Translations under genes and position numbers: made by a program
In this document: positions 1 through 64,000 of the stretch, piece after piece
Numbering within the stretch: the first letter of the stretch is position 1
How the letters are laid out: every line of letters starts with the position of its first letter
Notes under the pieces: model-generated
Told to the model about the DNA's origin: nothing
What the model saw: the letters and a program-made list of their open reading frames with translations, nothing else
Database searches by the model: none
IMG/VR virus record: IMGVR_UViG_3300006922_000005
Length of the DNA stretch: 64,000 nt
Strand: one strand, 5' to 3'
Source: a virus
Taxonomy: Duplodnaviria; Caudoviricetes

Positions 1-406
1 GAGGCTTACCTGCTTGTAGTTTTTCTAATGCTTTAACTGCCATTGCAGGGTTTTCTAAACCAAGTTCTGACCTAAGTGTGTTAAGTCCTGCTCTTGTATC
101 TGTTGAATTTTTACCTTTGTCTTTGTTGTCAGTAGGATTATTTTTTTCATATTCATCAGCGGCACTACCAAACTTGTCAGCAATAGCATCGCCTGCTGTT
201 TTTAACGGATTTTTTCCTGCTTTATAACCTTTTCTTAAATTACTTGCAAACGCACCTTTCACATCAGTTTTAGGTTTATCTGTTTTTGTTACTGTGTTAC
301 TAAAAAATTGTTTTTTAATTGCCGCAGTTTCTTGCGGTGTAGGAGTATTGCCTTTAATTTCTACTTGCTGTACACCATCAGGTGTTTCTACTTTAATAAC
401 TGGCAT
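1..406 (-). CDS. Hypothetical protein, N-terminal part (runs off the window edge; MPVIKVETPDGVQQVEIKG...)
   Basis: ATG at 406-404 overlaps the TAA of the upstream ORF (TAATG coupling); frame is open to position 1. Confidence 0.7.
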   Translation of the reverse strand, partial: MPVIKVETPDGVQQVEIKGNTPTPQETAAIKKQFFSNTVTKTDKPKTDVKGAFASNLRKGYKAGKNPLKTAGDAIADKFGSAADEYEKNNPTDNKDKGKNSTDTRAGLNTLRSELGLENPAMAVKALEKLQAGKP

Positions 407-1083
407 TACTGAAACCTAAATATACCGTCGTTGCCTTTTACTAACTCGCCGTCAGTGGCATTCGATGTTTGTGCGGTTGCTTTTTGTTGTGCTTGTTCTT
501 TATCTTTTTTCTTGTTTTGTGTACGTAATTTTGCTGTGTAAGCACCTGGAGCAAGATCTTTAACTTTATCATCTTGAAAAGAATCTCTAACAATAAACTC
601 AATCATGTCTTCTACTTGTGCATTACTCAAAACACTGTCGCCTTTGATGTCTAGTGCTTCATATGTGCTTTGCACCATTTTTGTTCCTGCATTATTTCCT
701 TTTGGAAAAGGAACAGTGTTATCATCGCCACCTGCAGGTGCCTCGGGCTCAGTTGCTTTAACTGGTTTTTGATCCCTCATCTTTTTGGCTTTTTCAACTT
801 GTGCATATAATCCTGTAAGACTACCATATTTCTTTTCTAACGGATAACCAATTGCTGTAATAAATGCTTTTAGATTATTGCCTGTTGGGCGACCTTCGGG
901 CGTAGGAGTATAATACCGTTTGTATTCTTTGTACATTGCGTTGATTGCACTTTGTACTTTGCCGTCTGCTTGTGCGCCAGCACTGCCAAAAAATCCTGCA
1001 ATGCCTGTTACGGCCCTTTTAAATGCACCGATAGGTGCTTCGTCAATTTTTGGCTCAATTATAGCAAATTCATTAATTTTCAT
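406..1083 (-). CDS. Hypothetical phage protein (225 aa), probably late-expressed
   Basis: ORF with AGGAGA RBS (1091-1096) and a perfect TATAAATA upstream. Confidence 0.75.
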   Translation of the reverse strand: MKINEFAIIEPKIDEAPIGAFKRAVTGIAGFFGSAGAQADGKVQSAINAMYKEYKRYYTPTPEGRPTGNNLKAFITAIGYPLEKKYGSLTGLYAQVEKAKKMRDQKPVKATEPEAPAGGDDNTVPFPKGNNAGTKMVQSTYEALDIKGDSVLSNAQVEDMIEFIVRDSFQDDKVKDLAPGAYTAKLRTQNKKKDKEQAQQKATAQTSNATDGELVKGNDGIFRFQ

Positions 1084-1101
1084 GTGGTCTTCTCCTAAAT
1101 G

Positions 1102-1109
1102 TATTTATA
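1102..1109 (-). promoter_or_regulatory. T4-type late promoter TATAAATA
   Basis: Exact T4 late consensus 18 nt upstream of the 1083 start; a gp55-like sigma is encoded in the window. Confidence 0.75.
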
Positions 1110-1184
1110 TGATCACCAATCTAGCCGTCGAAAACCAAATAGCACAGTTTAATCACACTAACTACAACTCTAAATAATCTTACT

Positions 1185-1376
1185 ATGATAACAATGTATA
1201 GAATATATGATCATACCTCACGCAACACACTTGCTAACGGTATTCCCTCGCTAGAACAGGCACAAGAAGTATTGCACTTTTTAAAACTTGACGAACCAGC
1301 AAATGAGATTGAAATTGAAGAATATAAAACAAGCCAAGTCAAATCCGGCTTTGGACGCGATCCCGACCTACACTAG
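1185..1376 (+). CDS. Small hypothetical protein (63 aa)
   Basis: ORF preceded by TAAATA (1171-1176), divergent from the 1083 gene. Confidence 0.6.
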   Translation: MITMYRIYDHTSRNTLANGIPSLEQAQEVLHFLKLDEPANEIEIEEYKTSQVKSGFGRDPDLH

Positions 1377-62610: not shown

Positions 62611-62618
62611 TATATCTC

Positions 62619-63350
62619 CTATTTAGATTGTGCTGGCAAAATGTATTCATAAGTTGCCAAACCACTGTCTACTTGAATTTGCATAGCACCTTGATCTGAG
62701 AACTTCATTACTTTGTCGCCATCTAAACTTAAAATAGCAAGTGTTTGTTGTACTGGCCATGCCCATTCATTTTTAAGTGAACCTGTTACACCTGTAGCAA
62801 AAATAAATTCACCTGCGTGTGTACTAGCATCACCAAACTTGAACTTGATGTCTGTACCATCTGTAAGTACAGTAAACACAGTTTCTTCTGCGTTTGCAGT
62901 TGCCTGCATTTTAAATCTTTGTACACTTGCCATAGTAGGTGAAACTTCTACGTCCCATGCCGCACCTTTAAACTTAACAGTCTTAAGTTTTTCATTAATG
63001 ATTTCTGCGTTCATAAAACGATAATCATTTTTAAAGTCACCTGTTTTGTTTTCAAAGTGTATACCAGTTGGAATCTGTACACCGTTTCTATCTTGACGTA
63101 CAACATCAATAGTTGCTTCGTCTTTATATTCTGGACACTTCAAATGAATGTCTAGTTTGTTTAAGTTTGGCATACCAAACGTACCCTTCATCTCTACTTG
63201 GGCGTTTTTAGTATTTGCCTGCATGATCACAGAGCGATCCTCTGCCATGCTATCGATACCTGTTTGTGCATCATCACCATTGACCTTAACAATGTTAAGA
63301 AAGCCAAGTGCATGTGTATGTGCAACAATGTCTTGTAAAATGTCTTTCAT
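62619..63350 (-). CDS. gp45: Sliding clamp
   Basis: Size, FGMPNL, YRFM, C-terminal YEYILPAQ; directly downstream of the polymerase. Confidence 0.75.
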   Translation of the reverse strand: MKDILQDIVAHTHALGFLNIVKVNGDDAQTGIDSMAEDRSVIMQANTKNAQVEMKGTFGMPNLNKLDIHLKCPEYKDEATIDVVRQDRNGVQIPTGIHFENKTGDFKNDYRFMNAEIINEKLKTVKFKGAAWDVEVSPTMASVQRFKMQATANAEETVFTVLTDGTDIKFKFGDASTHAGEFIFATGVTGSLKNEWAWPVQQTLAILSLDGDKVMKFSDQGAMQIQVDSGLATYEYILPAQSK

Positions 63351-63374
63351 AGTTTTCTCCGTTCCTTATATACT

Positions 63375-63403
63375 ATTATATTTAGAAAATCATTCAAAGT
63401 CAA
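63375..63403 (-). promoter_or_regulatory. Sigma70-type promoter for clamp-dpdA
   Basis: TTGACT-17-TATAAT, with overlapping TAAATA. Confidence 0.75.
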
Positions 63404-64000
63404 ATAAATTATTGAATGTATTCTTCTGTTCGGTTGATTTAATATCCCAATCTAGCACTCCAATTAGATTATCTAACTTTTTATCGATGATTGCAGTTTC
63501 CATTTCGTCATCTTCAAAAGGCAGTTCTTGGAACCATTTTGGTAGTCTTAGTTCGTCCGTTGGGTACGCAACCGAAGTATATCCCATTGGATTTTGTTTT
63601 AGTTTGCAAACAATAACTTTCATACCGTCTACAATCTGCATACTAAATTTGTCACCGTTCATATCTTTTAATGTATTCCAATTAATAGAAGCACGAACGT
63701 GTCCAGGCATGTTTACTTTGCCTAATTTTTTAAGTTTAGCAAGATAGTCTGTTACGTTGTTTGCACGTTTAGGAGAACCTTTCTCCCAACCAGGCCTTGC
63801 TTTAAATTTAGTTCTAAAATCTGTGATCATATCAAGTATTTCAACTTCTTTGCCGTCTGTTAGTACTGCTAACAATACTTCACTTAAAAAGTCTTGCATA
63901 AACACAGGAGTATCAGAACGTTTAAGATCTAACCCCATTGCTTTTACTTTACCAGGCTTACCATCTGTATCTGTTCTAAATCCTTCATTGTCATATATTA
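63390..64000 (-). CDS. gp43: Family B DNA polymerase, C-terminal part (5' end outside window)
   Basis: YDNEG...KVKAMGLDLKRSDTP...PGHVRASINWN...KVIVCKLK. Confidence 0.9.
   Translation of the reverse strand, partial: IYDNEGFRTDTDGKPGKVKAMGLDLKRSDTPVFMQDFLSEVLLAVLTDGKEVEILDMITDFRTKFKARPGWEKGSPKRANNVTDYLAKLKKLGKVNMPGHVRASINWNTLKDMNGDKFSMQIVDGMKVIVCKLKQNPMGYTSVAYPTDELRLPKWFQELPFEDDEMETAIIDKKLDNLIGVLDWDIKSTEQKNTFNNLFDFE

What the first reader, a model, noticed from the sequence alone, without database searches (positions are those of the whole stretch)
1..64000. Apparent genome-wide avoidance of GCWGC and AGCT
Seen: GCA is the dominant Ala codon, yet every Ala-Ala pair I inspected starts with GCG or GCC. 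Examples: AAAGCGGCC 8701, GAAGCGGCA 9359, ACAGCGGCC 19109, CCAGCGGCG 33837, GCGGCGGCT 37966, and on the minus strand AAPAVQAAA at ~46643-46670 and LAAAAF at ~56197-56212. Ser-Ala is TCG GCT rather than TCA GCT at 6817, 21648 and 24203. I found no AGCT, GCAGC or GCTGC by eye, while GATC, GGCC, CCGG, GCGC and TGCA are present. Inference: selection against two specific nucleases (AluI-like and TseI/ApeKI-like host restriction, or the phage's own nucleases). This implies the guanine modification is incomplete or does not protect these sites.
Basis: partly seen in the sequence, partly recalled or inferred. Interest (0 to 1): 0.6.

Follow-up and report, generated by a model that had tools for sequence, protein, structure and literature searches.

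The report
AGCT-free phage with lone restriction enzyme
A giant uncultured marine phage has removed every AGCT and GCWGC from its DNA by silent recoding. It also carries a restriction-enzyme-like gene with no protective methylase, and that gene is found almost only in AGCT-free viral DNA, so the phage probably cuts other DNA at AGCT and stays safe by having no sites.

Summary
The 64-kb window has 0 AGCT (146±9 expected after synonymous-codon shuffling) and 0 GCWGC (46±3 expected). GCSGC is enriched five-fold in compensation.

Among about 160 relatives the two words are lost independently: at least 9 changes of state for AGCT and at least 4 for GCWGC. Other lineages have purged other palindromes.

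The window encodes P0001 (44598-45173, minus strand), a 191-aa PD-(D/E)xK protein.
- Its fold matches type II restriction enzymes (NaeI Z 10.6, ThaI Z 9.5).
- A homodimer is modelled.
- A near-consensus sigma70-type promoter lies just upstream.
- No methylase was found.

Carriers of this family are almost all AGCT-free:
- 149 of 163 classifiable loci, over 33-53% GC, whether or not GCWGC is avoided.
- In several lineages AGCT is the only purged word.
- One bacterial homologue lies beside a C5 DNA methylase.

Best reading: a solitary AGCT-cutting phage nuclease, with self-immunity through absence of sites. Cleavage has not been tested, and host restriction remains a rival.

No gene linked to GCWGC was found, so its cause is open. 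In partial avoiders, 63 of 64 surviving GCWGC sites are GGCWGC, the context that CAjan-type deazaguanine systems modify.

This scan has reported similar cases on other DNA: e1-5406559, e1-5406159 and e1-5348055.

The parts
1..64000 (.). 64-kb stretch of an uncultured marine jumbo myovirus (relatives are estimated at about 350 kb) that contains no AGCT and no GCAGC/GCTGC
   Evidence: Searches give the counts and nulls. Searches give gp55-, gp46/47- and gp6-like genes; the nearest cultured phages are PA5oct, Atu_ph07 and RaK2 at 32-50% aa identity. One search gives CheckV completeness of related contigs (172 kb = 47%).
44598..45173 (-). P0001: 191-aa solitary PD-(D/E)xK protein, restriction-endonuclease-like; candidate AGCT-specific nuclease
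   Evidence: D64, E74-x-K76 and N101 are invariant. AF2 model pLDDT 90.5. Structural matches are nearly all type II REases: NaeI Z 10.6, ThaI Z 9.5 over 169 residues, NhoI 8.0, DpnI 7.5, plus PvuII and EcoRV. Homodimer model score 0.73 against best control 0.00; partner pLDDT at least 87; the three runs agree in at least 97% of their contacts; the mark was reached by 20 of 30 proteins solved as pairs and 1 of 23 solved as single chains. Carriers are AGCT-free. No Pfam, PHROG, NCBIfam or PADLOC match.
45206..45234 (-). sigma70-type promoter-like site (TTGACC-17-TATAAT, 11 of 12) 33 nt upstream of the P0001 start
   Evidence: a consensus match only. The region as a whole has no excess of such sites.
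45244..45843 (-). P0002: 199-aa ORF of unknown family next to P0001. It is variably present, so it is probably a mobile insert and not the cause of either avoidance.
   Evidence: Present in L081 and L085 but replaced in L082 and L083, whose MoxR gene is 100% identical. Only 10 hits among about 390 loci. No family match.
45908..46999 (-). MoxR-type AAA ATPase. With the VWA/DUF2201 gene at 43247-44536 it flanks the P0001 insertion. Used as an anchor to fetch relatives.
   Evidence: MoxR and VWA are adjacent, without P0001, in L098, L103, L133, L141 and L150.
51022..51981 (-). QueE-like radical SAM gene of the 7-deazaguanine cluster
   Evidence: phrog_2076, E 6e-53. Homologues occur in avoiders and non-avoiders alike.
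55686..57101 (-). YhhQ/Vut_1 transporter-like gene (55686-56345) and GTP cyclohydrolase I FolE (56412-57101) of the same cluster
   Evidence: PF02592 E 2e-20 and PF01227 E 8e-37.
61162..62610 (-). 482-aa ORF that first-stage notes call DpdA; identity unverified here
   Evidence: No Pfam, PHROG or PADLOC match. A homologue at 49% identity sits in the non-avoider contig G009.

Best explanation
Two separate selective agents keep two short palindromes out of this phage.

AGCT. The phage carries its own solitary type II restriction-endonuclease-like enzyme, P0001 (44598-45173, minus strand). It is probably a homodimer, probably made early from a sigma70-type promoter, and has no methylase partner. 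I infer that it cuts AGCT in DNA that carries the site, meaning the host chromosome, competing phages or both. The phage genome would then be immune simply because every AGCT has been removed by synonymous recoding. Once the gene is present, any new AGCT would be self-destructive, which would explain an absolute zero kept through deep divergence. Host AluI-type restriction may have started the purge before the gene was acquired.

GCWGC. An independent agent of the same kind is at work. By default this is a host TseI/ApeKI-type restriction system; it could instead be a second phage nuclease in the unsampled part of the genome.

The 7-deazaguanine system, if it works like CAjan's (GA and GGC contexts), would leave both words unprotected. 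That may be why these words have to be absent.

Shown here: the purge, its independence for the two words, the enzyme's fold and motif, and the link between the gene family and AGCT-free DNA.
Inferred: cleavage at AGCT, timing of expression, the target DNA and the direction of causality.
For: 1. The purge is real and works through synonymous choice.

2. The two words behave independently on the gp6 tree: at least 9 changes of state for AGCT and at least 4 for GCWGC. The sister contigs L037 and L064 are in opposite states. Whole-contig counts:
- G007: AGCT 140/235, GCWGC 0/109.
- G008: AGCT 3/88, GCWGC 82/72.

3. P0001 has the D...ExK motif and a restriction-enzyme fold of the EcoRV/PvuII-like group, and a homodimer is modelled. 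The dimer score is 0.73 against a best control of 0.00; partner pLDDT is at least 87 and the three runs agree in at least 97% of their contacts. That mark was reached by 20 of 30 proteins solved as pairs and by 1 of 23 solved as single chains.

4. The family is large: 339 clusters at 50% identity.

5. Carriers are AGCT-free:
- 149 of 163 classifiable loci.
- 61 of 65 metagenome contigs.
- 28 of 41 clusters at 80% identity have at most 15% of the expected AGCT.
- GC content of carriers ranges from 33% to 53%.

6. In L263/G023, L269, L274 and L246, AGCT is the only purged word. The carriers L199, L226 and L254 keep GCWGC at the expected level.

7. Ten long contigs that keep AGCT lack the gene.

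8. No C5 or N4/N6 DNA methylase was found in about 1.6 Mb of related contigs.

9. In an Arenicellales chromosome the homologue lies tail to tail with a C5 DNA methylase (PF00145, E 1e-63). That is the layout of a type II R-M pair.

10. Only 5 matches were found among one genome each of 185,579 prokaryote species, so the family is mainly viral.

11. There is a precedent for self-protection by lack of sites: PacI (PMC3488263).
Against: - No cleavage data exist. AGCT specificity rests on correlation alone.
- The link is not perfect. About 10 of 41 clusters keep AGCT although D, E and K are intact. Examples: G016, 233 kb, 680/892; L239, 26/28.
- Some carriers are not fully site-free. G023 keeps 19 AGCT of 525 expected, which a freely acting self-nuclease should not tolerate.
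- AGCT-free relatives without a detected copy exist: G002 (172 kb, 47% complete), and L098 and L103 at the MoxR-VWA locus.
- All contigs are partial, so absence of a methylase or of the gene is not proven.
- Many carriers belong to one marine clade, so locus counts overstate the number of independent cases.
- The bacterial homologue has an in-frame stop, and its methylase has unknown specificity.
- The promoter is only a consensus match.
- For GCWGC no linked gene was found at all.
Confidence: 0.55

Rival explanations
1. Classical restriction-site avoidance only. Hosts of these phages carry AluI-type and TseI/ApeKI-type restriction-modification systems, and both words were purged to escape them. 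P0001 is a passenger. It could be a restriction gene captured from such hosts, or a gene that is tolerated only in genomes already free of AGCT. In either case it does not itself maintain the purge.
For: - Elimination of orthodox type II palindromes is documented in about one tenth of phage genomes (PMC6286503).
- Relatives purge many other palindromes in a patchy way: GTWAC, ACWGT, CTAG, CATG and TGCA.
- Graded intermediate states exist: G008 3/88, G010 2/87, G023 19/525.
- AGCT-free contigs without a detected P0001 copy exist.
- GCWGC avoidance has no linked phage gene.
- AGCT and GCWGC methylation is known in aquatic prokaryotes (PMC6329791, PMC8919816).
Against: - It does not explain why a mostly viral nuclease family tracks AGCT-free DNA across 33-53% GC and across marine and other habitats.
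- It does not explain why a phage would keep an intact, separately promoted restriction-type gene.
- The host is unknown and no host system was identified.
- The aquatic groups shown to methylate these words are Thaumarchaeota and Chloroflexi, which are unlikely hosts for a phage with a gp55-type late sigma factor (my inference).
Confidence: 0.3
2. Both words are kept out by phage-encoded solitary nucleases. A second gene, specific for GCWGC, lies outside the window, by analogy with P0001.
For: - The P0001 case shows the principle within this genome.
- An earlier scan note (e1-5406559, not checked here) reports a lone restriction-enzyme-like gene confined to GCWGC-free relatives of a pond jumbo phage.
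- GCWGC is at an absolute zero in the clade: G019 0/182, G003 0/111.
Against: - Association scans found no candidate. They covered the window, G002, G003, G007, G019, G024, G025, G027 and G028 against about 390 loci.
- Genes found only in GCWGC-free DNA were radical-SAM, TauD-type or 2OG-type oxygenase-like, methyltransferase-like, or tiny ORFs.
- No RE_Bsp6I match was found, but the control genomes did not match either, so that search is uninformative.
- Each contig holds only one P0001-family copy.
Confidence: 0.25
3. The absence is not due to selection by a nuclease. It would instead be a by-product of mutation bias, codon usage, DNA-modification chemistry, or a sequencing or assembly artefact at modified sites.
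For: The phage has a deazaguanine-type gene cluster, and modified bases can disturb some sequencing chemistries.
Against: - The codon-shuffle null keeps codon usage and protein sequence and still expects 146 AGCT and 46 GCWGC.
- Neighbouring words are normal or enriched (AGCA/TGCT, TGCA, GCSGC).
- The pattern is specific to particular codon pairs.
- The same zero appears in many independent metagenomes.
- Close relatives with the same gene cluster keep both words.
Confidence: 0.02

Closest known systems
Restriction-site (short palindrome) avoidance in non-temperate dsDNA phages (Rusinov et al. 2018, PMC6286503)
   Same: Short type II-style palindromes are completely eliminated by synonymous change. 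The set of purged words differs between lineages.
   Different: Here one purged word tracks a restriction-type gene carried by the phage itself, not a known host system. The host is unknown. A 4-mer is at zero over at least 182 kb in a genome estimated at about 350 kb.
PacI, a solitary restriction endonuclease whose bacterial genome lacks its site (as cited in Ershova et al. 2012, PMC3488263)
   Same: A restriction enzyme without a methylase, where self-protection comes from absence of the site.
   Different: PacI is an 8-bp rare cutter in a bacterium, so absence of sites needs little recoding. Here a 4-bp site, with hundreds to thousands of copies expected per genome, was purged in a virus. 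PacI's fold (HNH, from memory) is unrelated.
Chlorovirus-encoded restriction-modification systems such as CviAII, CviJI and CviRI, which degrade host DNA
   Same: A virus-encoded frequent-cutting restriction enzyme that could attack host DNA early in infection.
   Different: Chloroviruses protect their own DNA with cognate methylases. No methylase was found here; protection would come from absence of sites.
EcoRV/PvuII-like PD-(D/E)xK type IIP endonucleases (NaeI, ThaI, PvuII, EcoRV, DpnI)
   Same: The fold, the D-x9-ExK catalytic motif, the small size and the modelled homodimer. PvuII's site CAGCTG contains AGCT.
   Different: No detectable sequence similarity (best PDB sequence match E 0.48). 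Specificity is untested. The gene is solitary in phages.
AluI (AG^CT) and TseI/ApeKI (GCWGC) restriction enzymes
   Same: Their recognition words equal the two purged words.
   Different: Only the words match. No sequence of these enzymes was available for comparison, so kinship is untested.
T4 EndoII/EndoIV host-DNA degradation, with self-protection by hydroxymethylcytosine (from memory)
   Same: A T4-like phage would use an early nuclease that spares its own DNA.
   Different: T4 tells self from host by base modification. Here the proposed discrimination is by absence of a sequence word.

Membership tests
Restriction-site avoidance in lytic dsDNA phages | A short palindromic word is strongly under-represented (observed/expected below 0.1) against a composition-aware null | tested here: met
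   AGCT 0 against 124 (Markov) or 146±9 (codon shuffle). GCWGC 0 against 51 or 46±3.
Restriction-site avoidance in lytic dsDNA phages | The depletion is achieved by synonymous codon and codon-pair choice | tested here: met
   All 50 Ala-Ala pairs start with GCG or GCC. AAG/CAG/GAG-CTN, AGC-T.. and ..A-GCT pairs are absent.
Restriction-site avoidance in lytic dsDNA phages | The host encodes a restriction system that recognises the avoided word | not testable with these tools
   The host is unknown and no REBASE or host genome was available. The nearest cultured phages share only 32-50% aa identity.
PD-(D/E)xK type II restriction endonuclease | Catalytic D...(D/E)xK motif conserved across the family | tested here: met
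   D64 and K76 are invariant and E74 at least 90% conserved in 57 sequences.
PD-(D/E)xK type II restriction endonuclease | Restriction-endonuclease-like fold | tested here: met
   Model pLDDT 90.5. NaeI Z 10.6 (158 aligned, rmsd 6.4); ThaI Z 9.5 (169 aligned, rmsd 4.1). Nearly all the best matches are type II REases. All Foldseek E-values are above 0.001.
PD-(D/E)xK type II restriction endonuclease | Homodimer acting on a palindrome (type IIP) | tested here: inconclusive
   The model supports a symmetric dimer: score 0.73 against best control 0.00; partner pLDDT at least 87; the three runs agree in at least 97% of their contacts. The mark was reached by 20 of 30 proteins solved as pairs and 1 of 23 solved as single chains. 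This is a prediction only.
PD-(D/E)xK type II restriction endonuclease | Cognate DNA methyltransferase encoded nearby | tested here: not met
   No PF00145 or PF01555 match in G002, G003, G007-G009 or G019-G023. The feature is met only for the bacterial homologue in L278. All phage contigs are partial.
PD-(D/E)xK type II restriction endonuclease | Sequence-specific double-strand cleavage (here at AGCT) | not testable with these tools
   Inferred only from the link between the gene family and AGCT-free DNA.
R.AluI family | Sequence homology to R.AluI | not tested
   No AluI sequence or profile was available. P0001 matches nothing in Pfam, NCBIfam, PHROGs or PADLOC.
Solitary restriction enzyme protected by site absence (PacI type) | No recognition site in the carrier's own genome | tested here: met
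   AGCT: window 0/124, G003 0/237, G019 0/422. This assumes the site is AGCT. Some other carriers keep a few sites (G023 19/525).
7-deazaguanine DNA modification system (Dpd/Que, phage type) | FolE, QueD, QueE and a DpdA transglycosylase are present | tested here: inconclusive
   FolE, a QueE-like gene and YhhQ were found. The T-fold ORF matches only an uncharacterised PHROG. The 482-aa 'DpdA' ORF matches no library.

The most novel reading that the evidence does not exclude
A large, mostly viral and so far unannotated family of solitary type II restriction enzymes is used by aquatic jumbo phages as an offensive nuclease against host or rival DNA. Self and non-self are told apart not by methylation or base modification but by genome-wide deletion of the 4-bp target word. 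Divergent family members may have shifted to other words; for example G016 lacks AGCGCT and TGCGCA. If so, purged words in viral genomes could reveal the specificity of the virus's own nucleases as well as those of its host.
Probability: 0.45. Interest if true: 0.85.

Novelty: new variant of a known kind. Interest (0 to 1): 0.72.

Why it matters
Site avoidance in phages is normally read as a footprint of host restriction and is used to guess hosts. If a phage's own solitary nuclease can impose the same footprint, that inference needs care. Purged words then become a way to assign specificities to uncharacterised viral nucleases.

It would also add a third way for a virus to aim a nuclease at host or rival DNA, alongside T4-type base modification and chlorovirus-type methylation. 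Here the virus would hold no target at all.

In practical terms, the P0001 family is a candidate source of new AGCT-type (and perhaps other) restriction enzymes. It is abundant in marine and other aquatic viromes.

The finding that surviving GCWGC sites sit in GGC contexts suggests how motif-limited deazaguanine modification and site purging could divide the work of protecting the genome.

Tried and rejected
- Whole genome: not held, so 'genome-wide' was judged on relatives' contigs.
- Megablast against cultured phages: no match. tblastn of P0001 against cultured phages: no match.
- P0002, the neighbouring nuclease-like ORF, as a cause: rejected. It is present only in the nearest relatives.
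- Deazaguanine cluster as a marker of avoidance: rejected. QueE, FolE and the 482-aa ORF also occur in non-avoiders.
- Protective phage methylases: none found with PF00145 or PF01555 in 14 contigs. Other methylase families were not searched.
- Loss of catalytic residues in carriers that keep AGCT: not seen.
- Specificity of the Arenicellales methylase from names of homologues: only generic names came back.
- Gene linked to GCWGC: four association scans. Candidates were radical-SAM/B12, TauD-type or 2OG-type oxygenase-like, methyltransferase-like, an approximately 60-aa ORF (53126-53326), or clade-specific genes with no independent contrast.
- RE_Bsp6I search: empty, but the control genomes also gave nothing, so it is uninformative.
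- Look-ups of distant family members P0097 and P0192: contigs too short to use.
- The wide alignment A2 was too diverse for a locus search.
- Flank rule for surviving AGCT ('G in front', from e1-5348055): only a moderate enrichment here, 55% against 28%.
- Host prediction from methylome papers: AGCT methylation is reported in Thaumarchaeota and GCWGC in Chloroflexi. I do not take these as hosts.
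Full report
**1. The observation**

The window (64,000 bp, 34.5% GC) has no AGCT, GCAGC or GCTGC.
- Maximal-order Markov expectations are about 124 AGCT sites and about 51 GCWGC words. These are the two most depleted words of their lengths (z -15.7 and -7.2).
- I called 57 genes (94% coding) and shuffled synonymous codons within each gene 300 times. This keeps protein sequence and codon usage. 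It gave 146±9 AGCT and 46±3 GCWGC; the observed count is 0 for both. GCSGC rises to 57 against 12.
- All 50 Ala-Ala pairs start with GCG or GCC, although 93% of other Ala codons are GCA or GCT. Every codon pair that would spell AGCT is missing.
- Near-identical DNA is present in marine metagenomes from at least 13 studies.

**2. What the genome is**

The window comes from a T4-like myovirus of the large-genome group around RaK2, Atu_ph07 and PA5oct.
- It encodes a gp55-type late sigma factor, gp46/47, a 1180-aa baseplate wedge protein and a 4648-aa ORF.
- The nearest cultured phages share only 32-50% protein identity.
- Related contigs of 172-233 kb are rated 47-65% complete, so the genomes are about 350 kb.
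- The host is unknown. Earlier notes call the phage a cyanophage. The two proteins I searched, gp6 and MoxR, did not bring up cyanophages among the listed best matches.

**3. Relatives**

I fetched 80 loci anchored on gp6 and 80 anchored on MoxR. They show a mosaic.
- The window's clade lacks both words.
- Some lineages lack only AGCT: G008 has AGCT 3/88 and GCWGC 82/72.
- Some lack only GCWGC: G007 has AGCT 140/235 and GCWGC 0/109.
- Many keep both: G009 has AGCT 620/726 and GCWGC 500/558.
- On the gp6 tree AGCT changes state at least 9 times and GCWGC at least 4 times. The sister contigs L037 and L064 are in opposite states.
- Other lineages have eliminated GTWAC, ACWGT, CTAG, CATG or TGCA.

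This is the known signature of pressure from type II-like nucleases (PMC6286503). It shows that two separate agents act on the two words.

**4. The turn: a nuclease gene in the window**

First-stage notes had flagged a D...ExK ORF between the MoxR and VWA genes. I examined this ORF, P0001 (44598-45173, minus strand, 191 aa).
- It has no match in Pfam, PHROGs, NCBIfam or PADLOC.
- D64 and K76 are invariant and E74 nearly so; a K.RFDKSD..E motif is also conserved.
- A confident model (pLDDT 90.5) matches almost only type II restriction enzymes: NaeI Z 10.6, ThaI Z 9.5 over 169 residues, NhoI, DpnI, SwaI, SfiI, EcoRV and PvuII. Foldseek E-values are weak, at 6e-3 or worse.
- A symmetric homodimer is supported: score 0.73 against best control 0.00; partner pLDDT at least 87; the three runs agree in at least 97% of their contacts. 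The mark was reached by 20 of 30 proteins solved as pairs and 1 of 23 solved as single chains.
- A TTGACC-17-TATAAT site lies 33 nt upstream of the start.

**5. The association with AGCT-free DNA**

The family has 339 clusters at 50% identity and is mostly viral.
- Only 5 matches were found among one genome each of 185,579 prokaryote species.
- A distant member (36% identity) sits on 46%-GC contigs that lack AGCT (0/33) but keep GCWGC (40/36).
- Nearly all of 70 viral loci with a member are AGCT-free, over 33-53% GC.
- 61 of 65 metagenome contigs of at least 4 kb are AGCT-free or nearly so.
- Overall, 149 of 163 classifiable loci with a member are AGCT-depleted.
- At 80% identity, 28 of 41 clusters have at most 15% of the expected AGCT.
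- In L263/G023, L269, L274 and L246, AGCT is the only purged word.
- Ten long contigs that keep AGCT have no family member.
- No C5 or N4/N6 methylase was found in the related contigs.
- In an Arenicellales chromosome the homologue, which carries an in-frame stop, lies tail to tail with a 466-aa C5 methylase, next to a Z1-domain gene.

**6. Reading**

The simplest account is that P0001 is a solitary AGCT-cutting enzyme and that the genome is immune because it has no site. PacI is a bacterial precedent (PMC3488263).

The caveats are real.
- Specificity is inferred from correlation only.
- About a quarter of clusters keep AGCT with intact catalytic residues. G016 instead lacks AGCGCT (0/20) and TGCGCA (2/45), which may mean a shifted specificity.
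- G023 keeps 19 AGCT sites of 525 expected, nine of them in one 4-kb patch.
- G002 (172 kb) is AGCT-free with no copy detected.
- All contigs are fragments.

Host restriction may have begun the purge, and it remains the main rival explanation.

**7. GCWGC**

Four association scans and a family search found no nuclease-like gene confined to GCWGC-free DNA. The cause is open: a host TseI/ApeKI-type system, or a second phage nuclease outside the sampled DNA.

An earlier scan note reports such a lone gene in another GCWGC-free phage (e1-5406559). I could not test that note here.

**8. Guanine modification**

- FolE, a QueE-like gene and YhhQ are present. The proposed DpdA is unverified.
- The cluster also occurs in relatives that keep both words, so it does not by itself cause avoidance.
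- CAjan's system modifies G only in GA and GGC contexts, and G in GC or GT contexts stays cuttable (PMC7544227). Phage iggy modifies GA only (PMC10484667). AluI cuts dG+ DNA of phage 9g (PMC5567051).
- AGCT and GCWGC contain neither GA nor GGC.
- In nine partial avoiders, 63 of 64 surviving GCWGC sites are GGCWGC/GCWGCC, against 44% in non-avoiders (p 1e-20). Surviving AGCT sites are moderately enriched for a flanking G or C: 55% against 28%.
- This fits context-limited modification that protects some sites while the rest are purged. In the window's own clade even the GGC-context sites are gone.

**9. Verdict**

Avoidance as such is known. The new element is a solitary, mostly viral restriction-type family tied to AGCT-free genomes, so I rate the finding a new variant of a known kind. 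This scan has reported parallel cases on other DNA.

Noticed in passing
G003 (L172-L177), L011, L006, L019, L012, L017, L027, L072, L052, L045, G002 (L163-L171), L259: Other lineages of the same phage family have fully eliminated other short words: GTWAC (0/193 in G003), ACWGT, CTAG, CATG, TGCA (5/46), the non-palindromic AGCCC/GGGCT (0/59 in G002) and GACC (0/80 in L259).
   Followed up: partly
window 1-64000; G003, G019, G002, G025: GCAAGC/GCTTGC is about 85% depleted in genomes that avoid both AGCT and GCWGC (window 3/18, G019 10/58), and in G025. It is normal in G007, G008, G010, G023 and G009. GCATGC and GCTAGC are also low. The depletion is non-palindromic and unexplained.
   Followed up: partly
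window and all related contigs: TAAATA/TATTTA is about half of expectation in every genome examined, avoiders or not. The T4 late-promoter word TATAAATA occurs only once in the window, although a gp55-type late sigma gene is present. The late promoter of these phages may differ, or spurious promoters may be selected against.
   Followed up: no
window and all related contigs: GGATG/CATCC (the FokI-type word) is moderately depleted in nearly all genomes of the family (window 28/75, codon-shuffle z -4.7). GGATCC occurs once against about 10 expected.
   Followed up: no
G016 (L282-L293), 233 kb: This contig carries an intact P0001-family member and keeps AGCT (680/892), but lacks AGCGCT (0/20) and TGCGCA (2/45). 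GCWGC is at 150/343, and 88% of the survivors are in GGC context. The family member may have a shifted specificity.
   Followed up: partly
G023 (L296-L306), about 129.4-133.6 kb: Nine of this contig's 19 surviving AGCT sites cluster in 4 kb. Several share the context T-AGCT-CAG, which looks like a repeat or a recently acquired segment.
   Followed up: no
window 52384-53121 (-): A 245-aa, very acidic protein with no family match, found only in AGCT/GCWGC-free relatives (37 loci). It is clade-specific, so the link carries no independent weight. A DNA-mimic role is only a guess.
   Followed up: no
L278 1500-8003 (Arenicellales bacterium chromosome): A probable defence island: a Z1-domain protein, two unknown ORFs, a P0001-family gene with an in-frame stop at codon 140, and a convergent 466-aa C5 DNA methylase.
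   Followed up: partly
window 17220-31166 (+): A 4648-aa ORF directly after the baseplate wedge gene. It is conserved in about 88 related loci.
   Followed up: no
window 53126-53326 (-): An approximately 60-aa ORF upstream of clpP has homologues only in GCWGC-free loci (8 lacking both words, 3 lacking only GCWGC, none in GCWGC-rich loci). It is too small to be an ordinary nuclease, and its meaning is unknown.
   Followed up: partly
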